Shown here: in pieces, positions 4,294 through 54,077 of the stretch
Layout of the letters: each line of letters starts with the position of its first letter
How positions within the stretch are numbered: position 1 is the stretch's first letter
Assembly: GCA_030765455.1 (NCBI GenBank)
Contig: JAVCCM010000166.1
Span: 55,835 to 119,834 of the forward strand
Source: Candidatus Electryonea clarkiae
GTDB lineage: Bacteria > Electryoneota > Electryoneia > Electryoneales > Electryoneaceae
Length of the DNA: 64,000 nt
Direction of reading: 5' to 3'
Made by a program: the position numbers and the translations under genes
Notes under the pieces: generated by a model
The model's database searches: none
Seen by the model: the letters and a program-made list of their open reading frames with translations, nothing else
Told to the model about the DNA's origin: nothing

Positions 4294-7035
4294 TTATTTG
4301 ATATACATCAACTTACGTATATCAGAGAATCCGTAATTGGAGGATACCCTGAGGAAATACAACCCAGCCGGATGGTTGGTTGCATTCCAGTTAAGCCGAT
4401 GGTATCCAGGCGTAAGGCTGCCCTGCTGGAGAATCGCGACATGTTGACCAAGAATGTTTATGATATCGGTTTGGACTTCTTCGATGTGAGGAACCGCGAC
4501 CACAATGCTCACCATGGGGTTGAACGGATTTGGATATATTGCTTCAAGCGCCCATTCAGTCGGAACACCAGACCACGGGATATCTTTAACAGAATCATAA
4601 GGCCAAATTACTTCAACCTCATTTGATTCCTCGGTTTCGCCTTCATCATAAACTGCTGTGACGATATAAAACCAAGTGTAAGGTGAGTATTCGCCTGGGT
4701 CTGGCTCAGTAATGTATTCTGTCCATGTAGGTTGCTCAGAATTACCCACATGTTCATCGTCACGATATATCTTAAATCTAATAAAATCATCAAGATTCTC
4801 ATGTGACCAGTTCAAGGTGACTTCAAGTTGTAAAGTATCACCTTCTATTAACTCGGTAGTTGCATACAAATCCGTTGGGGCGTTAAGAGCAATCCTATCT
4901 ATGTCATCTTGATGATTTGGTATTATCCGTAATCCCTGGCGTGAAAGGCTGATGACGCCGGTAAATACTCCCCAGTCGTCTGCCACGAAACCTGAAAGAT
5001 CGAGGTTGGCTTCACCACTTATCCTGACTTCGCATTGCCCTGAACCGTCATCAACAACAAGAGTGTATGTTCCCTCTCCCGGAGGATCACGGTTGATCAG
5101 TCCCTTGATCTGTGCCCAGGTTCCTTCTCGCTCATCCATAGTACTCATGATCCCGGTAGAATCGGCAAGTGGGTCAGGTAAAGGAATATCGACATTGATA
5201 ATTTCATGATTGAAATTTATAAGTTGCGCAATATCACCAGATTCAACGTAATAACCGATAACTACCAGTTCATCGCCACGGTTGATATTTTGTTCAGGAT
5301 CCCAGGGATCATCATCCCAGAGCTGAATACCCCAGCCCGAATCATCCTGGATGTAAATGTTGGTATGCGCAGTATCGACGGAATTCGTTCCCTGGATAAC
5401 TATACCTGTTGTTTGAACCCAGGTTTCCTCTTCCTGTTCGTTCTGGATTTGTTCAATGGTGCGTTCGAAAACGGGAGTCAGTTCAAAATCCTCAGTGTTC
5501 TCACGTTCAAAACTGATTAATACCTCAGCAGTATCTGATGGTGCATATCCTGTCAAGCTTGCGATTAGCCTGTAGGTGACGTCGCTATGTAAAGCGGGGG
5601 CAATATATTCACCCAATTCATTAGTCTGAACCACCCTGTGAGTTTCACCTGTTTCTGAATTGATGCATTCAACGTTAGCTCCTTCGAGGACGTCCTCTGT
5701 GAGTTCATCAATTACAGTACCGGTCAGGTCGGCAGAGAGAAAATCTATGCCGATATCAGCCTCATTGTCACCATCCACAACCTCAAATGTTGAATCTGAA
5801 TAATCGAAATAATCTTCAGCAACAATCCTCAGTATGTTGATCCCGGTATTCAAATCGATCAATGAGTAATTACCTTCTTCATCAGATGTATCAACATCGA
5901 CTCCCCAGGTAAGTATTGCGCCATCAACAGGATCTTCAGTCTCGGAATCATAGATTATTCCACTAAGAGTCGCCATTGGAGTGATTTCAAAATCATAAGC
6001 ATTATCGCCGGGATCAATATCAATAAACTCAGTATAAACGTAATAATGTTCTTTGTGAATAGTCACTATCACATCTTCACCGGAACGTACCTCGTCAATA
6101 AAATAATTGCCGTCTTCATCAGTCGTATCAGGATCAGCGCCTACCATCCCGACTATAGCGCCTTCTATTTCATCCTCAGTTTCCGAGTCAATAACAGTAC
6201 CGGATACATTTGCATCTGGAAGTGGGAGGTAGATAGAAATTGCCAGTTCATCCGAGGGATAATTATTGGCGTTGTAATTGATTCGTAGTCCCACATTACC
6301 CTGGTGATTTTCTATCCCGATTGTATTGGAAGTCACAGTCATAGTTATTTCTTGATACTGGAACTTTATATGCCCGGTGGGATAAAGGATTACCTGCATA
6401 GTGATTGTTCCTGGACCGGTATGTCGAGCAACCTGGTGATATTGAATGGTCATATGAGTTTCATCACCTTCATAGTATATCTCACCGCCATCAGAGGGAT
6501 CCAGGTCATCCCAGAAAGGTGCAATCAGGTAATTGGGTGTGGGAGCATTGGGAATAATCTGATTTGTAAAACTGGTCCCCTGTCCCGATGAAAGGGCAAT
6601 AAATCCATTAGAGCACACCCAGAACCGGTCATAGACTCTTCCATAAAAAGGGAAATTAAAATCAAGGTTGAACGATCCTCGCGACTGGTCATCACCGGTT
6701 ATATTGCAATCATCACCTGTGTCTGAAATATCATTCCAATCGTACTCCGGACCGCCATCTTCGTTACTGTCAATGTAGCTGTAACCGAATGCATCAGGAC
6801 CTCCCATCCGGTCTAACTCATTATGTGATCTCTTAACAGTGCCCGGAATAATACCCTCAGCGATTAAAAGCTCTTCTTGAGCGATACTTATGGGCAATCC
6901 GTTTTCGAAAGCATATTTTGCTTTATCTATCTGCAAGTAATAATGATTCTTATCGATATAATCGTCAGAGCAGAATCCCGTTGACGTCATTATTAATAAA
7001 CAGCAAATTGTCAGTGCGAAACAATTTTTCAACAT
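4294..7035 (-). CDS. T9SS-sorted large secreted protein, paralog A2 (the most diverged member of family A)
   Basis: Same architecture as A1 (ELDRMGGPDAFGYSYIDSNEDGGPEYDWNDIS, FNFPFYG...SNG, conserved CTD). The ORF runs to 7092, but the ATG at 7035 (MLKNCFALTICCLL...) follows an AGGAT RBS and starts a signal peptide. Confidence 0.8.
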   Translation of the reverse strand: MLKNCFALTICCLLIMTSTGFCSDDYIDKNHYYLQIDKAKYAFENGLPISIAQEELLIAEGIIPGTVKRSHNELDRMGGPDAFGYSYIDSNEDGGPEYDWNDISDTGDDCNITGDDQSRGSFNLDFNFPFYGRVYDRFWVCSNGFIALSSGQGTSFTNQIIPNAPTPNYLIAPFWDDLDPSDGGEIYYEGDETHMTIQYHQVARHTGPGTITMQVILYPTGHIKFQYQEITMTVTSNTIGIENHQGNVGLRINYNANNYPSDELAISIYLPLPDANVSGTVIDSETEDEIEGAIVGMVGADPDTTDEDGNYFIDEVRSGEDVIVTIHKEHYYVYTEFIDIDPGDNAYDFEITPMATLSGIIYDSETEDPVDGAILTWGVDVDTSDEEGNYSLIDLNTGINILRIVAEDYFDYSDSTFEVVDGDNEADIGIDFLSADLTGTVIDELTEDVLEGANVECINSETGETHRVVQTNELGEYIAPALHSDVTYRLIASLTGYAPSDTAEVLISFERENTEDFELTPVFERTIEQIQNEQEEETWVQTTGIVIQGTNSVDTAHTNIYIQDDSGWGIQLWDDDPWDPEQNINRGDELVVIGYYVESGDIAQLINFNHEIINVDIPLPDPLADSTGIMSTMDEREGTWAQIKGLINRDPPGEGTYTLVVDDGSGQCEVRISGEANLDLSGFVADDWGVFTGVISLSRQGLRIIPNHQDDIDRIALNAPTDLYATTELIEGDTLQLEVTLNWSHENLDDFIRFKIYRDDEHVGNSEQPTWTEYITEPDPGEYSPYTWFYIVTAVYDEGETEESNEVEVIWPYDSVKDIPWSGVPTEWALEAIYPNPFNPMVSIVVAVPHIEEVQTDIINILGQHVAILQQGSLTPGYHRLNWNATNHPAGLYFLRVSSNYGFSDIRKLMYIK

Positions 7036-46768: not shown

Positions 46769-46879
46769 AAAATGTAGGGAAATTCAAATTCATATATATT
46801 GCTATATATAGAAGATAGAGCAATAATAATCAATTCCCTGGATTCAAGAATCCAGGCTACAAATTGAAAGGAGGCGGTA

Positions 46880-49017: not shown

Positions 49018-51696
49018 TTACCTCGAGAGGACTACTTTTCGAATTTCATTCATTTTACCCGGTACTGTCGCGCGGATGAAATATATTCCACTTGACAAGT
49101 GTGAGCCGTCAAAAGAAATTCGATGGTATCCTTCCGTGTAATTGTCGTTAGTAAGAATTGCAATTTCTCTCCCCAGAATATCATAAGCTGAGACTGTCAA
49201 TCTTGATGAGAATGGCAATCCTACCATGATTGAAACGGTCGGATTGAAAGGATTGGGATATACGGATGCTATCGAAAACTCGGTCGGGATTCCAATGAAA
49301 GCGTTCTCTTCAACACCTGTAATGTCTAACAGGAACGTGAAGCGTTCCATAGATTCTACTTCATCACCGCTTGATAGAGCTACCACCCACCATTCAGCAG
49401 TAAGAACTCCCTCCAAACCTTCTATTTCGAGTTCATCAGATAAGCTAATCGTTCTTTCCAGGTTGTCGTTAACCGCCATATTGATAGTCGTGTCCAGATC
49501 AGCAACAGTCACATAAATAAAAAGTGAATATTCTGCAGCCTGTTCCGGATCAGGATCAACCGCCTCATCCCAGGTAAAAGCGATTTCGAACGGTTCCTCT
49601 ATATCCAGGGTCGCTTCATTTTCGGGTGTCAGAAGGGCGAAATCATTTGGCGGCTCCGGATAATTAGTCTGGAAACTGCGTGAATTTGCCCAAGCGCCTT
49701 CTGTGTTTGTGTCCTGTGCATGAACGTTCCAATAATACTGGGTGTCATCATCGAGACCTGTATATTCAAGGAATGTATCTGCTCCTGCCTCTTCGATAAG
49801 AGAATCAGATAAATCCTCATTGACCGATAAGTACCAGGTATATGTTATCTCGTCACCTGGATCGGGATCGACTGCGGGATACCATGTGAAAGTCCAGTTG
49901 AGAGTATCAATCTCAACACCGTCTGACGGTCTTGACAACCTTAATCCATCAGGCGGATCGAAGAGGTAAACGCCAAAAGACCAGCCTGCATCAGGTGAAG
50001 ACCAGATACCAACAGTAAAACCGTCATTGGCGCGTACTTTCCAGTAAACAGTAACATCATCGTCAAATTCATCGAGTTCTTCAGATGTCAGGCGTTCACG
50101 TTGCCGGTCGATCAATACCAGCAGTTCATCCTCGTCAAATGTGTATTCGATTGTGTCGATGTCGGTTACTGAGTCCGCTTCCGCAAAATCTTCTTCAAGA
50201 GCGTAATAGAGGACGTAGCTTAACGAGTCTTCATCAGGATCTTCAGCCGGATCCCACTCTAAAGTAGGTGAAGCTGTATTAACCTCGGCTCCATCCTCGG
50301 GAGAGACTAAATCGAATGTCTCAGGCGGGTTTTGATGTATCACACTAAGATCGTCAAAATAGATATGCCACTCATCGGCAGTGTAAAGAATAGAGGTGGA
50401 AGTAAATTCTATTCTAACCTGGATTGTCTCACCCTGATAAGCGGTCAGGTCCCATAGTTCTTCCCATTCCGTACTGAACCATTCCCAATCCTCCGGAACA
50501 TCATCATATACTTCATCCTCACCATCCTCTCCGTATGGATTAGAGGCATAATACCATTCATCGGTGTCGGATGGTTTCACATGCATAGTCCAGTATGCAT
50601 CATCGTTTGCATGTTCCCATACACCGTTGACCATTACATCAAGATACGTAAGACCCTCATCGTAATCTGTCAGGTCTATATCTTCCGTATATGTGGCATA
50701 ACGTGAAAATTCACGAGGTATATTATATATTCCTGAAACTAAATCACCTGACGGTGCGTCTTCGATTGCATGTAATGAGAATGCAGGGTAACGACCGCTA
50801 AACATCACGAATTCACCGCCGGTGTTATTCCCATCAGCATCATCGGCGAAGTATATTTCATTACGTTCGCTCAGCTCGATGTTATCAAGCTGGAATCCTG
50901 TCCAAGAGGCGTCTCCAAGACCATCGTTAGTGGATGATGCCTGGTCGGAGGCGAAACAGAATGCGATCCTGACCATATTCCCGCCGGCGTAGTCCGACAT
51001 GTCCATAGTTACCGCAGACCATTCATCAATCAGAATATCACCCCAACCGGGGACATTATCGCCTATTCCCCAACCTTCTTCAAGAGTATCACTAAATGCA
51101 AAACCGGCATCGAAATTGTATTCAGGTCCGGTTGCAGGTATGAGTACATCCCATGTCTGCCCGGCATCACCCGAAGCCCAGACATTGGCACCGTCCCAGC
51201 CATCATAATGACCTATAGGTGACAAAACTTCAACCATTACACGGCAATCGAATGAAAGCACCGGACTTTCACTGTCCCCCAGGTCGATTAATGGTGAGAC
51301 CAGATAATGCAGCCAATGATTGTCATAACCACCGTTAACACCGGCATCTGGATCGTAACAGCGCCAGTTGTCGCCATTAAGCTGCGAATAATCTGAGGTT
51401 TGCCAGTAAATATCACTGGCATCGGAAATGACCCATTCCATACCGATATTTTCAAAATCTTCTTGCCAGACGAGTTCGTCAAGTTCACCATCATCGAGTT
51501 CATGATTTTTATTTACTCGAGATTCAGAGGAATGTTTTATCGGCACACGGTTCAATTCAGTGTTTTTGGCTGAAGACTGAGAATTGCTCCCCAGGTTTGT
51601 TTTATCAAGAGGTCGGGCGAAAGCGCCCGCTGAAATAATGCAAACTGCTAATAATCCAAGCATAGCAAGCTGCACAAGACGAGTTACCTTATTCAT
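49018..51696 (-). CDS. T9SS-sorted large secreted protein, paralog B1 (FN3-like repeats plus T9SS CTD)
   Basis: RBS AAAGGAG and signal peptide. Approx. 60% identical to 54124-56829 overall. FN3-like SPTLEWDPAEDPD. CTD YPNPFNPTVSIMVGLP...GIYFIRATVPGKMNEIRKVVLSR. Confidence 0.8.
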   Translation of the reverse strand: MNKVTRLVQLAMLGLLAVCIISAGAFARPLDKTNLGSNSQSSAKNTELNRVPIKHSSESRVNKNHELDDGELDELVWQEDFENIGMEWVISDASDIYWQTSDYSQLNGDNWRCYDPDAGVNGGYDNHWLHYLVSPLIDLGDSESPVLSFDCRVMVEVLSPIGHYDGWDGANVWASGDAGQTWDVLIPATGPEYNFDAGFAFSDTLEEGWGIGDNVPGWGDILIDEWSAVTMDMSDYAGGNMVRIAFCFASDQASSTNDGLGDASWTGFQLDNIELSERNEIYFADDADGNNTGGEFVMFSGRYPAFSLHAIEDAPSGDLVSGIYNIPREFSRYATYTEDIDLTDYDEGLTYLDVMVNGVWEHANDDAYWTMHVKPSDTDEWYYASNPYGEDGEDEVYDDVPEDWEWFSTEWEELWDLTAYQGETIQVRIEFTSTSILYTADEWHIYFDDLSVIHQNPPETFDLVSPEDGAEVNTASPTLEWDPAEDPDEDSLSYVLYYALEEDFAEADSVTDIDTIEYTFDEDELLVLIDRQRERLTSEELDEFDDDVTVYWKVRANDGFTVGIWSSPDAGWSFGVYLFDPPDGLRLSRPSDGVEIDTLNWTFTWYPAVDPDPGDEITYTWYLSVNEDLSDSLIEEAGADTFLEYTGLDDDTQYYWNVHAQDTNTEGAWANSRSFQTNYPEPPNDFALLTPENEATLDIEEPFEIAFTWDEAVDPDPEQAAEYSLFIYVTVADLDTTINMAVNDNLERTISLSDELEIEGLEGVLTAEWWVVALSSGDEVESMERFTFLLDITGVEENAFIGIPTEFSIASVYPNPFNPTVSIMVGLPFSSRLTVSAYDILGREIAILTNDNYTEGYHRISFDGSHLSSGIYFIRATVPGKMNEIRKVVLSR

Positions 51697-51971
51697 TTTC
51701 GGCTCCTTTTTGAATAATGTAAATTCTTATGTATAAAATATGTGGTTTATCTGTGTGATCTCTATTTGAGCTAATTCCTTATCAATTCCACGTCATTACA
51801 AGCAAAGCGAAGCAATCCCATAAAACATATATCTGGTGTATCATTAAAGCTAAGGGCAGACGTGTGTTGTTTCAAGAGAAATGGTAAAATAAAGGTATTT
51901 GTTTTGTTTCCGGTATTACAGACAGTTTTTGCTCTCTGCGGGAATATTTACTAATGGTTCATTGTACATAA

Positions 51972-52069
51972 TTTGCTGAGTAGCTCACTTTCGCCGAAAG
52001 TGAGTCGTTTGCACGGAAATCGTTGGTACAGTTGGACTCACTTTCGGCGAAAGTGAGCTACTCAGCAAA
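51972..52069. repeat. 98-nt nested perfect inverted repeat (35-nt arms, 28-nt spacer; each arm holds the internal palindrome ctcactttcgccgaaagtgag)
   Basis: tttgctgagtagctcactttcgccgaaagtgagtc at 51972-52006 is the exact reverse complement of 52035-52069. Confidence 0.8.
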
Positions 52070-52090
52070 ACAATACAACTGCTATCAAAC

Positions 52091-52121
52091 AGAAACGCCC
52101 GGTGATAATCCGGGCGTTTCT
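52091..52121 (-). terminator. terminator hairpin agaaacgcccgg-N7-ccgggcgtttct after the FG-GAP gene stop
   Basis: 12-bp stem 25 nt past the stop at 52147. The minus strand reads GTTTCTGTTTG after the stem. Confidence 0.5.
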
Positions 52122-52146
52122 ACTCCTACAGCTACATAAAAAATAA

Positions 52147-53973
52147 CTATCTTGCAAGTACTACTTTTTTTATCTCGTTCATTTGTCCGGGTACAGTTGC
52201 ACGGATGAAATAAATCCCGCTTGACAGATGCGAACCGTCAAAAGTGATCCGGTGATAGCCTTCGGTGAAATTATCATCAGCCAGAACAGCAACTTCACGT
52301 CCCAACACATCAAATGCAATAACATTAAGTTTGGATTTATGTGGAAGCCCAATCATTATTGAAACCACCGGATTAAATGGGTTAGGGTATAACGAAGAAA
52401 TCTCCCATTCTTCCGGGATGCCGTCATAAGGATGTTCATCGACACTTACATCCTCGGGGATGAAGATGGAGAATGGTTGTTCGCATTCGACTGTATCCCC
52501 TTCGGAGATTGCTCCGACCTTCCAATTTATTCGTAAAAAATTGTCTTCCCACTCCTCAAAATCGAAAAATTCACGTAAATTCTCCTGCCAACCGTTTGAG
52601 TCTATAACCTGTTGTACATGTTCGATCAACGTGTCATCTCCATGGTGATACAGGTCGAGTTCGAACAGGTAATACATCACTTCCGCCAATGAATCTGCAT
52701 CTGACGATTCTTCCCAACTAAAAGACGTTTCCTGGAGTTGTTCCGCGCTGTAAGATTCCCTGTTGCGAGGCTCGAGCAAAACAAAATCATTTGGCTGGTG
52801 ATCGTTCGGACTGCAAAGGTAATAATTAATAAAATTATGTCGATTGCAATTGTTTACTAGATCCATATACCCATCTTCGTTTAAATCTCCTGCAGTGATT
52901 TTACTTCTATAATCATAAACAGTATCAATTACATGAAAAGTAAAGTCTTGCAAACCGTCATTCTCATACCAAAAGAGGTACAATGAGAATTCATAATTAA
53001 ATCTGCTTTCGAGTTGACCGAAAATATCTAAATCACCATCGGAATCAATATCGATAAGTGTTGTAGCTCCCGGATTCTCTTCATCCTCAAAAGTCGTGAT
53101 AATATTCTCTTCGAATTGTTGCTCTCCATCATTCTCCCACCAGGAAAAATGAACCTGGTCATTGTATTGTCCTACAACGAAATCCAGATCGCCATCGTTG
53201 TCGATATCCCCCGTATCGAAATCCCAACAGGGCTGCCAATAGACCGAACTATCGATAAAATTTCCATTATCAAGATTTTCATAATAAAATAGATAGCCAA
53301 ATCCAAGTGAAACTTCTGCGAAGATATCCAAATCGTTGTCGTTATCGATATCTACAAGATCAACATTTTTACACCTACTACCTTCACCATATTCAATTAC
53401 ATTATTAACAAAATCGAATTCCATATTTCTGTTTTCCAGCCAGGTAATGAGATAATATCTCCTATCTATGACATTCCTTCCGGCTAATAGAATATCCTTG
53501 TCTCCATCGTTGTCAATATCACCGACCTCAATATCATCACAGTAGCTGAAACTATACCTTAATATTTCTGTAAACTCATTATTGCCGCTGTTTAGTAAAA
53601 TATAAACAGAATCATACCGACCTTGTTCCAATACTAGATCAAAATCTTCATCTCCATCCAAATCTTCAAACTTAAACACAATTACACAATCGGGGACTGC
53701 TTCAATATTATATTCTTCAAACTGACATGCGCCCGTGTTTTCGAACCAATGCATGTAATTAGCGAATCCTCCACTGACAACAACATCAGAATCTCCATCG
53801 GCATCATAATCAAGGATTCTTACATAAGAAGGACCCTCTAAAGCATCATTCAGAGCATGCTTATGAAACCATGGGGTTGCCAGACAAGTAGGGATAGTAA
53901 GGATACAAATAAGTAATAAAATTACCCAACCTGTGAAAGTATAAAAGATACGGCTGTCTTGATGTTCGGACAT
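52147..53973 (-). CDS. T9SS-sorted FG-GAP/VCBS-repeat protein
   Basis: Repeated DxDxDGDxD motifs (DIDNDGDKD, DIDNDNDLD, DIDNDGDLD, DIDSDGDLD) with FG-GAP-like spacing. CTD nearly identical to B1 and B2 (YPNPFNPVVSIMIGLP...GIYFIRATVPGQMNEIKKVVLAR). Start at ATG 53973 (MSEHQD...TM) rather than GTG 54012. Confidence 0.75.
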   Translation of the reverse strand: MSEHQDSRIFYTFTGWVILLLICILTIPTCLATPWFHKHALNDALEGPSYVRILDYDADGDSDVVVSGGFANYMHWFENTGACQFEEYNIEAVPDCVIVFKFEDLDGDEDFDLVLEQGRYDSVYILLNSGNNEFTEILRYSFSYCDDIEVGDIDNDGDKDILLAGRNVIDRRYYLITWLENRNMEFDFVNNVIEYGEGSRCKNVDLVDIDNDNDLDIFAEVSLGFGYLFYYENLDNGNFIDSSVYWQPCWDFDTGDIDNDGDLDFVVGQYNDQVHFSWWENDGEQQFEENIITTFEDEENPGATTLIDIDSDGDLDIFGQLESRFNYEFSLYLFWYENDGLQDFTFHVIDTVYDYRSKITAGDLNEDGYMDLVNNCNRHNFINYYLCSPNDHQPNDFVLLEPRNRESYSAEQLQETSFSWEESSDADSLAEVMYYLFELDLYHHGDDTLIEHVQQVIDSNGWQENLREFFDFEEWEDNFLRINWKVGAISEGDTVECEQPFSIFIPEDVSVDEHPYDGIPEEWEISSLYPNPFNPVVSIMIGLPHKSKLNVIAFDVLGREVAVLADDNFTEGYHRITFDGSHLSSGIYFIRATVPGQMNEIKKVVLAR

Positions 53974-54077
53974 ATAAACCACCCGATATTCGGAAATTGT
54001 GATTTGCTCCACTAATACATATCTGCGGCTTAATCTTGACGATTAAGCCGCTGGTTTAATAAGCACTAATATCCAAT

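What the first reader, a model, noticed from the sequence alone, without database searches (positions are those of the whole stretch)
51972..52069. 98-nt nested perfect inverted repeat between two T9SS cargo genes
The 35-nt arm tttgctgagtagctcactttcgccgaaagtgagtc (51972-52006) is repeated as an exact reverse complement at 52035-52069, across a 28-nt spacer. Each arm itself contains the palindrome ctcactttcgccgaaagtgag (8-bp stem, 5-nt loop). A 35/35 perfect match is far beyond chance. The element can fold either as one long 35-bp hairpin or as two local hairpins, which is a bistable architecture. It lies approx. 80 nt beyond the stop of the FG-GAP gene and approx. 280 nt upstream of paralog B1. 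A simpler terminator hairpin (52091-52121) sits closer to the FG-GAP stop, so this element is surplus to termination. Candidate roles are a MITE-like mobile remnant, a recombination or cruciform site, or a structured sRNA or regulatory 5' leader of the B1 transcript.
Basis: seen in the sequence. Interest (0 to 1): 0.5.

Follow-up and report, generated by a model that had tools for sequence, protein, structure and literature searches.

The report
REP-doublet (REPIN) mobile hairpin element
The perfect 98-nt hairpin is one copy of a small repeated DNA element (a pair of inverted 'REP' palindromes, called a REPIN) found at gene ends across the genome of the uncultured Antarctic-lake bacterium Candidatus Electryonea clarkiae; this is a known kind of selfish repeat, seen here in a phylum where I found no description of it, and it is not a dedicated regulator of the two neighbouring secretion-cargo genes.

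Summary
Arms 51972-52006 and 52035-52069 are 35/35 complementary across a 28-nt spacer, and each arm holds the palindrome CTCACTTTCG-N-CGAAAGTGAG. The element is unique within the window but not within the genome. Each arm is the 25-mer GTAG+CTCACTTTCGCCGAAAGTGAG, a 5' GTAG tag followed by a 10-bp-stem palindrome, which is the signature of GTAG-class repetitive extragenic palindromes (REPs). The window comes from Ca. Electryonea clarkiae (Ca. Electryoneota, FCB group, Ace Lake). Other contigs of this species carry the same 25-mer at 11 or more further loci. Four of these are doublets with the same spacer: the 82-nt core is 94% identical between copies, while the flanks are about 24% identical. 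There are also collapsed 'double-foot' singles and stem variants with compensatory changes. A related-genus MAG carries the identical 25-mer in clusters and tandem arrays. All 15 tabulated sites are extragenic; 13 lie 0-85 nt from a stop codon, and none lies between divergent genes. There are no target-site duplications. The best reading is a REPIN mobilised in trans by a REP-associated tyrosine transposase (RAYT). No RAYT was found in the E. clarkiae DNA I could reach. A relative does carry a bona fide RAYT flanked by its own GTGG-tagged REPs. This is a new member of a known kind, of modest interest.

The parts
51955..51979 (+). Head-flank module 'A' (TGGTTCATTGTACATAATTTGCTGA), directly 5' of the left GTAG. 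Its last 8 nt (TTTGCTGA) form the outer part of the 35-nt arm.
   Evidence: The same module precedes GTAG in L023 (tggttcattgtacatgatttgttga). It is present in degenerate form in L022, L018, L025 and L030.
51980..52006 (+). Left REP unit: GTAG tag (51980-51983), palindrome CTCACTTTCG-C-CGAAAGTGAG (51984-52004) and a TC tail.
   Evidence: The identical 25-mer occurs 23 times in the loci held. An A precedes GTAG and a T follows the palindrome in nearly all units.
52007..52034 (+). 28-nt asymmetric spacer GTTTGCACGGAAATCGTTGGTACAGTTG, conserved between doublet copies.
   Evidence: The same spacer occurs in L020/L028, L022, L023 and L024, with 89% mean pairwise identity. The window copy equals the consensus.
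52035..52061 (-). Right REP unit, inverted: GTAG tag at 52061-52058 on the minus strand, palindrome at 52057-52037, TC tail. Together with the left unit it forms a head-to-head (GTAG outside) dimer, which is a REPIN.
   Evidence: Orientation nomenclature is from PMC3733652.
52062..52078 (-). Degenerate inverted copy of module A (minus strand: TTGTATTGTTTTGCTGA). The first 8 nt are a perfect mirror of the left side, which is why this copy has 35-nt arms rather than 27-nt arms.
   Evidence: Other doublets carry a different module 'B' here (TTTTACCACTCGATTCAAGAGCAACGCTCC).
52091..52123 (-). G+C-rich hairpin (12-bp stem, 7-nt loop) between the FG-GAP stop and the REPIN. It is terminator-like and is itself preceded by GAGTAG on the minus strand.
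   Evidence: I4; fold; GTAG tag. It was not called a terminator by the scan. No other copy was found in the loci held.
52147..54012 (-). Upstream gene: FG-GAP repeat protein with a T9SS C-terminal sorting domain. The REPIN lies in its 3' flank.
49018..51696 (-). Downstream gene ('B1'): T9SS cargo protein. It is identical to an NCBI protein of Ca. Electryonea clarkiae, which identifies the source organism.

Best explanation
The element is a REPIN. It consists of two copies of a GTAG-tagged repetitive extragenic palindrome (REP; A-GTAG-CTCACTTTCG-C-CGAAAGTGAG-T) in inverted, head-to-head orientation around a conserved 28-nt spacer. It is one member of a dispersed repeat family in the Ca. Electryonea clarkiae genome. 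Shown here: the family exists; it is multi-copy and extragenic; the 82-nt doublet is conserved as a unit; it decays into half elements and collapsed 'double-foot' singles; and it has stem variants that keep the palindrome. Inferred from the established biology of GTAG REPs and REPINs: the doublet is copied or moved in trans by a single-copy HUH/Y1 REP-associated tyrosine transposase (RAYT). The RAYT would bind the REP hairpin in single-stranded DNA, read the 5' GTAG at its foot, and cut and rejoin without making target duplications. At this locus the element landed in the 3' flank of the FG-GAP cargo gene, beyond its own terminator-like hairpin. Any host effect is secondary. The most likely one is a very stable 3' hairpin that blocks exonucleases or read-through into the next cargo gene. 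The unusually long 35-nt arms arise because this copy has the same head-flank module on both sides, whereas most copies have module A on one side and module B on the other.
For: The GTAG tag and 10-bp palindrome are present on both arms. A tag-free scan of one genome per species found 15 loci, 12 of them in one MAG. There 9 of 12 palindromes carry GTAG with the same central base, and variants, clusters and 132-nt tandem arrays are present. A metagenome scan with the 25-mer found 11 loci in two Ace Lake samples. Seven of 7 tested loci encode proteins identical to NCBI Ca. E. clarkiae proteins, which is the window's organism. Five doublets share the spacer: the 82-nt core has 94.3% mean identity against about 24% in the flanks, and the window copy equals the consensus. 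Collapsed GTAG-palindrome-CTAC singles retain the same A and B flank modules. This is the 'double foot' form that PMC6006769 attributes to central deletion of an inverted REP dimer. An E. clarkiae contig chosen through ClpC, without regard to repeats, holds two more REP-bearing intergenic regions. Five of 10 stem pairs show changes on both sides across variants. All 15 sites are extragenic, 13 of 15 lie 0-85 nt from a stop codon, and 0 of 12 lie between divergent genes. This matches the published distribution of GTAG REPs, whose head-to-head dimers have 20-100-nt spacers and can fold separately or as one long stem-loop (PMC3733652). No target-site duplications are visible. A relative (ClpC 77% identical) encodes a protein that scores 97.3 bits against the NCBIfam equivalog 'REP-associated tyrosine transposase' (cut-off 80). 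That gene is flanked by inverted GTGG/TTGG-tagged palindromes, so RAYT-REP systems exist in this clade.
Against: No RAYT was found in the window, in about 130 kb of other E. clarkiae DNA, or in 88 kb of the related MAG. This rests on motif scans and a Pfam scan of REP-flanking ORFs. A homologue search with the relative's RAYT returned no protein named for E. clarkiae. The four candidates I looked up belong to other organisms, each with its own REPs. No empty site or presence/absence polymorphism was seen: three assemblies of this locus are identical. Mobility is therefore inferred from the dispersed, near-identical copies and has not been observed. The REP units used for the covariation count were selected for being palindromic, which inflates the paired fraction.
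Confidence: 0.75

Rival explanations
1. Relic REP family. The copies descend from a REPIN burst, but the cognate RAYT has been lost or is inactive in E. clarkiae. The element is then immobile and decays by drift, or is kept only for incidental host uses.
For: No RAYT was found in any E. clarkiae DNA examined. Half elements and collapsed singles are about as common as intact doublets. The copy number seen is modest.
Against: The doublet cores are still 92-100% identical, and the window copy equals the consensus with perfect arms. The identical 25-mer is retained in a different genus with a different G+C content, which argues for continuing constraint. Only a small part of the genome could be searched.
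Confidence: 0.2
2. The element is primarily a host 3'-end RNA element. The hairpin is transcribed with the upstream gene and serves as an mRNA stabiliser, a termination barrier or an insulator between tandem genes. Repetition would then reflect recruitment for that role.
For: 13 of 15 sites lie 0-85 nt after a stop codon and none lies between divergent genes. The predicted hairpin is extremely stable, with z = -15 against shuffles. REPs in other bacteria are known to stabilise upstream mRNA (reviewed in PMC3733652).
Against: No U-tract follows the hairpin on either strand, and the scan calls no terminator. At this locus a separate terminator-like hairpin already precedes it. The spacer occurs in both orientations relative to the upstream gene. 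Conservation of the GTAG tag and the asymmetric spacer is not explained by a simple hairpin role. A position bias towards 3' ends is also what selection against harmful insertions would produce.
Confidence: 0.15
3. The element is a locus-specific regulator: a structured 5' leader or sRNA controlling the downstream T9SS cargo gene B1.
For: It lies 275 nt upstream of the B1 start on the coding strand.
Against: The same core is found next to unrelated genes, including a PemK toxin, a CoA-binding protein, a zinc-finger protein and a SpoIID-like protein, and usually downstream of them. Rfam gave only generic long-hairpin (miRNA precursor) hits below gathering score. No promoter-like site is adjacent.
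Confidence: 0.03
4. The element is a classical MITE: a deletion derivative of a DDE-transposase insertion sequence, with 35-bp terminal inverted repeats.
For: It has perfect terminal inverted repeats, is small and occurs in multiple copies.
Against: No direct target-site duplication flanks any copy. The outer 8 nt of the arms are not shared by the other copies, which carry module B on one side. Single REP units and tandem arrays occur. The conserved end is the GTAG tag typical of Y1-transposase substrates.
Confidence: 0.03

Closest known systems
REPINs of Pseudomonas fluorescens SBW25 (Bertels & Rainey 2011, PMC3116915; PMC3337134)
   Same: Both have two inverted REPs around a short spacer that fold into one long hairpin. 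In both, the doublet rather than the single REP is conserved as the unit. Both are extragenic and dispersed, and their singlets look like decay products.
   Different: The sequences are unrelated and the host phylum differs (Ca. Electryoneota, FCB group). Far fewer copies were seen here. The cognate RAYT has not been identified and no excision events have been observed.
GTAG-tagged REP super-family, head-to-head (HH) dimers (Di Nocera et al. 2013, PMC3733652)
   Same: Both have a 5' GTAG that is not part of the stem. The stem (10 bp) falls within the 5-13-bp range. HH dimers have 20-100-nt conserved spacers and fold separately or as one large stem-loop. Both are located downstream of ORFs, between unidirectional or convergent genes, and both form clusters and tandem arrays.
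   Different: That survey found GTAG repeats in Proteobacteria, Cyanobacteria, Chloroflexi and PVC, and only CGTC repeats in Bacteroidetes and Chlorobi. This family also has conserved head-flank modules (A and B) outside the tag.
'Double-foot' and canonical long REPs associated with TnpA_REP subclass 2.4 / RAYT group 4 (Quentin et al. 2018, PMC6006769; Bertels et al. 2017, PMC5581495)
   Same: That subclass is abundant in Bacteroidetes, Chlorobia and Cyanobacteria. Its REPs have 5' GT[AG]G and 3' C[TC]AC, explained as central deletion of an inverted dimer, and both forms are seen here. Copy numbers are low (about 14 copies of flanking 16-mers).
   Different: The RAYT subclass could not be assigned because no cognate RAYT was found. 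The relative's RAYT has the motifs DHVH / WQ / YIHGNP, which do not fit one subclass cleanly.
E. coli REP/BIME elements with RayT (TnpA_REP, PDB 4ER8)
   Same: Both are GTAG-tagged palindromes in inverted pairs at the 3' ends of genes. In E. coli the transposase was shown in vitro to bind the hairpin and cut at the tag.
   Different: E. coli REPs have bulged imperfect stems and dimers made of different REP types (Y/Z). Here the stems are perfect and the dimer is made of two identical units.

Membership tests
GTAG-class REP (repetitive extragenic palindrome) | A short palindromic unit (20-40 nt, stem 5-13 bp). | tested here: met
   The unit is 25 nt with a 10-bp perfect stem around one central base.
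GTAG-class REP (repetitive extragenic palindrome) | A conserved 5' GTAG (or GTGG) tetranucleotide at the foot of the hairpin, outside the stem. | tested here: met
   Both window arms carry it. In the tag-free genome scan, 9 of 12 copies in the related MAG have GTAG; the other three have GGAG, GTAA and no recognisable tag. All 4 units found in L030 by the loop core alone have GTAG. Three unrelated chance palindromes lack it.
GTAG-class REP (repetitive extragenic palindrome) | Many dispersed copies in one genome, in extragenic space, mostly 3' of genes. | tested here: met
   At least 15 sites were found in Ca. E. clarkiae DNA. All are extragenic, 13 of 15 lie 0-85 nt from a stop codon, and none lies between divergent genes. 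The genome-wide count is unknown.
GTAG-class REP (repetitive extragenic palindrome) | A cognate RAYT (Y1/HUH transposase) gene in the same genome, flanked by the same REPs. | tested here: inconclusive
   None was found in the window, in about 130 kb of other E. clarkiae DNA or in 88 kb of the sister MAG. The whole genome could not be searched. A relative has a RAYT (NF047646, 97.3 bits) flanked by its own GTGG REPs.
REPIN (REP doublet forming a hairpin) | Two REPs in inverted orientation separated by a short spacer, predicted to form one long hairpin. | tested here: met
   (I1). The minimum-free-energy fold is the 35-bp hairpin on both strands, as RNA and as DNA.
REPIN (REP doublet forming a hairpin) | The doublet including its spacer is the conserved, repeated unit. 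| tested here: met
   There are 5 independent doublets. The 82-nt core has 94.3% identity (spacer 89%), while the flanks are at about 24%.
REPIN (REP doublet forming a hairpin) | Evidence of movement (excision or insertion polymorphism). | not tested
   Only identical assemblies of this locus were available.
Classical (DDE-type) MITE | Terminal inverted repeats shared by all copies, plus a direct target-site duplication. | tested here: not met
   No duplication flanks any copy. The sequence outside GTAG differs between copies.
Intrinsic (Rho-independent) terminator | A G+C-rich hairpin followed directly by a U-run. | tested here: not met
   No T-run follows the long hairpin on either strand. 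The scan found 0 terminator-like sites in 51500-52400.
Any curated RNA family (Rfam 15) | A score at or above the family's gathering threshold. | tested here: not met
   The best hits are plant and animal miRNA-precursor models at 44 and 41 bits, against gathering scores of 57 and 245. These are generic long-hairpin matches.

The most novel reading that the evidence does not exclude
The identical 25-nt REP, with its tag and central base, is kept in two genera of an uncultured phylum. The two differ by about 6-7 points in G+C content and by 20% in ClpC protein sequence, while neighbouring genera carry quite different GT[AG]G-tagged REPs. This would mean a REPIN-RAYT pair that has been vertically co-inherited under very strong sequence constraint in Ca. 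Electryoneaceae. It would be the first such system described outside the well-studied Proteobacteria and Cyanobacteria, and it has an unusual modular head (modules A and B). The symmetric A-A copies (the window doublet and the L025 single) would then show hairpin-templated homogenisation of the arms. Alternatively, the family was exchanged horizontally between the two genera.
Probability: 0.3. Interest if true: 0.45.

Novelty: new member of a known kind. Interest (0 to 1): 0.3.

Why it matters
The finding explains a striking sequence feature without invoking a new regulator. It is an ordinary REPIN-type repeat, so the two T9SS cargo genes should not be annotated as sharing a special control element. 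It has three uses. First, it documents GTAG-class REP/REPIN repeats in the candidate phylum Electryoneota; the 2013 REP survey I read does not list this class for the FCB phyla it covered, and the paper describing the organism does not mention repeats. Second, it gives a defined 25-mer and 82-mer for tracking strain variation and assembly breaks in Ace Lake metagenomes. Third, it offers a test case for long-term REPIN-RAYT co-inheritance across genera. None of this changes current understanding of REPINs.

Tried and rejected
1. Rfam, permissive mode, on 51600-52250 gave only generic hairpin hits below threshold.
2. The promoter/terminator scan found nothing associated with the element.
3. A search for further copies in the window, using the arm, the palindrome and the loop core with mismatches, found none.
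4. An orthologous 'empty site' was not found. Exact-protein look-ups returned only identical assemblies. Homologues of the B1 protein were at most 45% identical, so no syntenic relatives were available.
5. RAYT hunt:
   - HUH/Y-motif regular expressions over six-frame translations of the window and all loci were negative for E. clarkiae and the sister MAG.
   - Pfam on 10 REP-flanking ORFs found unrelated families only.
   - No supplementary sequences were held for Bertels 2017.
   - The relative's RAYT, found by regular expression, was used as the query for the last homologue search. Candidates were prioritised by source pattern and amino-acid composition. Look-ups of P0228, P0154, P0148 and P0143 all led to other organisms with their own REPs.
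6. A scan of viral contigs for the 25-mer gave 0 hits, so there is no sign of a phage vehicle.
7. CRISPR and IS200/IS605 PATE readings were considered and rejected. There are only two units, the spacer is conserved rather than variable, and the hairpins are inverted rather than co-oriented.
8. The Bacteroidetes -7 promoter motif TAnnTTTG in module A was considered. The sequence is TAATTTG, one base short, and it varies between copies, so this was rejected.

Full report
OBSERVATION. Arms 51972-52006 and 52035-52069 are 35 nt long and 100% complementary, with 28 nt between them. Each arm contains the palindrome CTCACTTTCG-N-CGAAAGTGAG, a 10-bp stem around one central base (I6, I7). Because each palindrome is self-complementary, the two are also a 20/21 direct repeat 53 nt apart (D2). 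There is no further copy in the 64-kb window at up to 3 mismatches, and no shuffle produced a match. It is the only long near-perfect inverted repeat in the window. All genes in the region are on the minus strand. Reading that strand, the order is: FG-GAP/T9SS cargo gene (54012-52147), a 12-bp G+C-rich hairpin (52121-52091), the inverted repeat (52069-51972), 275 nt of spacer, then the next T9SS cargo gene (51696-49018). Both strands fold into the single 35-bp hairpin, with z about -13 to -15 against shuffles. The long hairpin beats two local hairpins by about 48 kcal/mol as RNA and about 28 as DNA. The 'bistable' label therefore holds only kinetically.

WHAT THE ARMS ARE. The arm reads TTTGCTGA-GTAG-CTCACTTTCG-C-CGAAAGTGAG-TC. 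A scan of one genome per species with the bare palindrome, without any tag, returned 15 loci. Twelve of them come from a single MAG, CAXXQY01. In that MAG, 9 of the 12 palindromes are preceded by GTAG and have the same central base when read from the tag. They are thus the identical 25-mer GTAGCTCACTTTCGCCGAAAGTGAG. The three hits from unrelated organisms lack the tag. The MAG also has stem variants (GTAGCACAC...GTGTG, GTAGCGCAG...), mixed clusters, and a 132-nt tandem array. A 5' GTAG tag at the foot of a short palindrome, repeated across a genome, defines the GTAG super-family of repetitive extragenic palindromes. Dimers with the tags on the outside are its commonest arrangement, with spacers of 20-100 nt, and are described as able to fold separately or as one large stem-loop (PMC3733652). 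Bertels and Rainey named such doublets REPINs (PMC3116915, PMC3337134).

THE SOURCE GENOME CARRIES MANY COPIES. The protein of the downstream gene is identical to an NCBI protein of Candidatus Electryonea clarkiae. This is a member of Ca. Electryoneota in the FCB group, described from Ace Lake, Antarctica (PMC9324843). That paper does not mention repeats or transposases. A metagenome scan with the 25-mer found 11 loci in two JGI samples. One of these samples, 3300025642, is the metagenome from which a published E. clarkiae MAG was binned (PMC9324843). Seven of the 7 tested loci encode proteins identical to NCBI E. clarkiae proteins, so these copies belong to the window's own species. Four further loci (L020, which is the same as L028, plus L022, L023 and L024) carry the doublet with the same asymmetric spacer. 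Across the five doublets the 82-nt core is 94.3% identical on average (arms 97%, spacer 89%). The sequence 20-60 nt outside is at the random level of about 24%. The window copy equals the consensus at every position. L021 holds a half element. L018, L025 and L026 hold single palindromes with GTAG on one side and CTAC on the other. L019 and L027 hold plain single units. An E. clarkiae contig fetched through its ClpC gene, without regard to repeats, contains two more REP-bearing intergenic regions, one of them a doublet of the stem variant GTAGATCCC...GGGAT. L025 has a further doublet of that variant type.

ANATOMY OF THE FAMILY. Aligned at the tag, nearly every unit has A before GTAG and T after the palindrome. 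Outside the tag there are two recurrent head modules. Module A is (TGGTTCATTGTA)CATRATTTGNNGA. Module B is GGAGCGTTGCTCTTGAATCGAGTGGTAAAA. Typical doublets are A-REPIN-B (L022, L023, L024). The window copy instead has A on the left and a degenerate inverted A on the right, and this is why its arms run to 35 nt rather than 27 nt. The 'double-foot' singles in L018 and L026 keep the same A and B flanks. This is what deletion between the two palindromes, which are direct repeats of each other, would leave behind. Quentin et al. describe this form and propose this origin for REPs associated with TnpA_REP subclass 2.4, which is abundant in Bacteroidetes and Cyanobacteria (PMC6006769). Bertels et al. 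report the corresponding RAYT group 4 as common in Chlorobia and associated with low repeat numbers (PMC5581495). Among 17 distinct unit sequences, 5 of the 10 stem pairs show changes on both sides and 94.7% of cells pair. The units were chosen for being palindromic, so the paired fraction is partly by construction. What the count does show is that several different stems coexist with an invariant tag and loop region. No copy is flanked by a direct target duplication.

WHERE THE COPIES SIT. For 15 E. clarkiae sites I tabulated the nearest ORFs of 90 aa or more. All sites are extragenic. Thirteen lie 0-85 nt from a stop codon, usually 20-45 nt; the two exceptions are the L026 single (250 nt or more) and the L019 single (no stop within the contig). 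Of the 12 sites where both neighbours are known, 6 lie between co-directional genes, 6 between convergent genes and none between divergent genes. In L027 the TAG of the tag is itself the stop codon. The neighbouring genes are unrelated to one another: a PemK toxin, a CoA-binding protein, a zinc-finger protein, a SpoIID/SPOR protein, a thiol peroxidase and others. The asymmetric spacer occurs in both orientations relative to the upstream gene. This matches the published distribution of GTAG REPs. It argues against a role specific to the two cargo genes.

RELATIVES AND THE TRANSPOSASE. The ClpC of MAG CAXXQY01 is 80% identical to that of E. clarkiae and 65% identical to that of Ca. Hatepunaea, the other named genus of the phylum. 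The MAG's loci have 47-50% G+C against 42.5% for the window. The identical REP is therefore shared by two related but distinct genera. Three further relatives, with ClpC 77-81% identical to the MAG's, lack this REP within 10 kb of ClpC. They carry other GT[AG]G-tagged palindromes with G+C-rich stem bottoms. In one of them (GCA_020444265.1; ClpC 77% identical to E. clarkiae) a motif scan found a 182-aa ORF with DHVH, WQ and YIHGNP motifs. This ORF scores 97.3 bits against the NCBIfam equivalog 'REP-associated tyrosine transposase' (cut-off 80) and matches Pfam Y1_Tnp weakly. It is flanked by inverted GTGG/TTGG-CTTGGGTG...CACCCAAG palindromes, and a compensated variant of that palindrome lies 4 kb away. 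RAYT-REP systems are thus present in this clade. I could not find the RAYT that goes with the CTCACTTTCG family. Motif scans of every locus held were negative for E. clarkiae and the sister MAG. The homologue search seeded with the relative's RAYT returned no protein named for E. clarkiae. The four candidates I could look up belong to other organisms, each flanked by its own REPs. The 25-mer does not occur in the viral contig collection.

MECHANISM. Shown: the element is one, consensus-identical copy of a dispersed, extragenic, GTAG-tagged REP doublet family that is conserved as a unit and decays in the ways described for REPINs. Inferred from what is established for E. coli RayT and for Pseudomonas REPINs: a single-copy RAYT binds the REP hairpin in single-stranded DNA, reads the GTAG at its foot, and cuts and rejoins, spreading the doublet without target duplications. 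Copies survive where they do least harm, just beyond stop codons. At this locus the host-level effect is most likely small. The gene already has a terminator-like hairpin. If the REPIN is transcribed at all, it would add an extremely stable 3' structure that could hinder exonucleases or read-through into the next cargo gene. I put 0.75 on the REPIN reading as a whole, about 0.9 on membership of the repeat family, and about 0.6 on present-day RAYT-dependent mobility.

RIVALS. A relic family without an active RAYT is the main alternative (0.2). It differs only in whether the element still moves. A primarily host-serving 3'-end RNA element is possible as an added role (0.15), but it does not explain the tag or the conserved asymmetric spacer. 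A B1-specific leader or sRNA (0.03) and a TIR/TSD-type MITE (0.03) are contradicted by the copy contexts and by the absence of duplications and shared termini.

NOVELTY AND SCORE. The kind of element is well known. The 2013 survey of REP families did not list GTAG repeats for the FCB phyla it covered (Bacteroidetes and Chlorobi), and the paper describing this organism does not mention repeats. The family is therefore a new member of a known kind. The retention of an identical 25-mer in two genera and the modular heads are mildly interesting. Interest 0.3.

Noticed in passing
window 52091-52136 (minus strand): The terminator-like hairpin next to the REPIN is itself preceded by GAGTAG (GTAG at 52123-52120). 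Two more GTAG motifs lie just upstream (minus strand ATGTAGCTGTAGGAGTAG, with GTAGCT equal to the first 6 nt of the REP). These could be remnants of REP heads, or a third REP type forming a small cluster. No other copy of this hairpin was found in the loci held.
   Followed up: partly
window 46837-46860 (minus strand); L020 5208-5231: A possible second GTAG-tagged hairpin family. The window has GTAGCCTGGATTCTTGAATCCAGG and another E. clarkiae contig has GTAGCCCGGAATCTTGATTCCGGG. They differ by compensatory changes in the stem. Relatives carry similar GT[AG]G-CC(C/T)GG... hairpins (L033 13179, L035 12578 and 12796, L004 3468). These could equally be ordinary terminators.
   Followed up: partly
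L034 4425-5160 (GCA_020444265.1, JAHLLH010000004.1): A bona fide REP-associated tyrosine transposase gene (4559-5107; NF047646, 97.3 bits) with no precomputed Pfam hit on record. It is flanked by inverted GTGG/TTGG-tagged palindromes and by three ~40-nt tandem repeats (gcttgcatttcagcac...agcgaca) between the upstream REP and the start codon.
   Followed up: partly
L014 5596-6010 (MAG CAXXQY01 contig_7): A tandem array of three 132-nt units. Each unit contains a head-to-head pair of two different REP variants around an ~80-nt conserved spacer. The spacer shares a short stretch (AACACGATTTCC...TGCA) with the E. clarkiae 28-nt spacer, which hints at common ancestry of the two spacers.
   Followed up: partly
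L027 2389-2392; L030 11922-11928: REP units abut or overlap stop codons. In L027 the TAG of the GTAG tag is the stop codon of a 4Fe-4S protein gene. In L030 the tag follows the TAA stop directly.
   Followed up: no
L010 7120-7320; L035 12578-12822; L033 13179-13202: The intergenic region just downstream of ClpC holds GTAG-tagged palindromes in three different genera, but from different REP families. E. clarkiae has none directly after ClpC. This may be a recurrent landing site.
   Followed up: no
L025 4604-4672: A single REP whose palindrome extends through the tags into the flanks (TTCGAA-GTAG-...-CTAC-TTCGAA, about a 20-bp perfect stem). It is a symmetric 'A-A' form like the window doublet and may reflect hairpin-templated homogenisation.
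   Followed up: no
L030 928-3871 (E. clarkiae contig k141_415537): A phage-type integrase gene and an IS3-family transposase pair (HTH_Tnp_1 + rve) lie upstream of the ABC transporter and ClpC genes. These are the only other mobile-element genes seen in the E. clarkiae DNA examined.
   Followed up: no
window 1-64000: The window is dense in large T9SS cargo genes with Por_Secre_tail C-terminal domains that cross-match one another at 30-50% identity (for example the ends at 111-398, 4294, 7352, 10898, 24621, 26869, 49018, 52147 and 54124). In the sister MAG several REP clusters also sit right after such genes. This is probably only because these genes are numerous.
   Followed up: no
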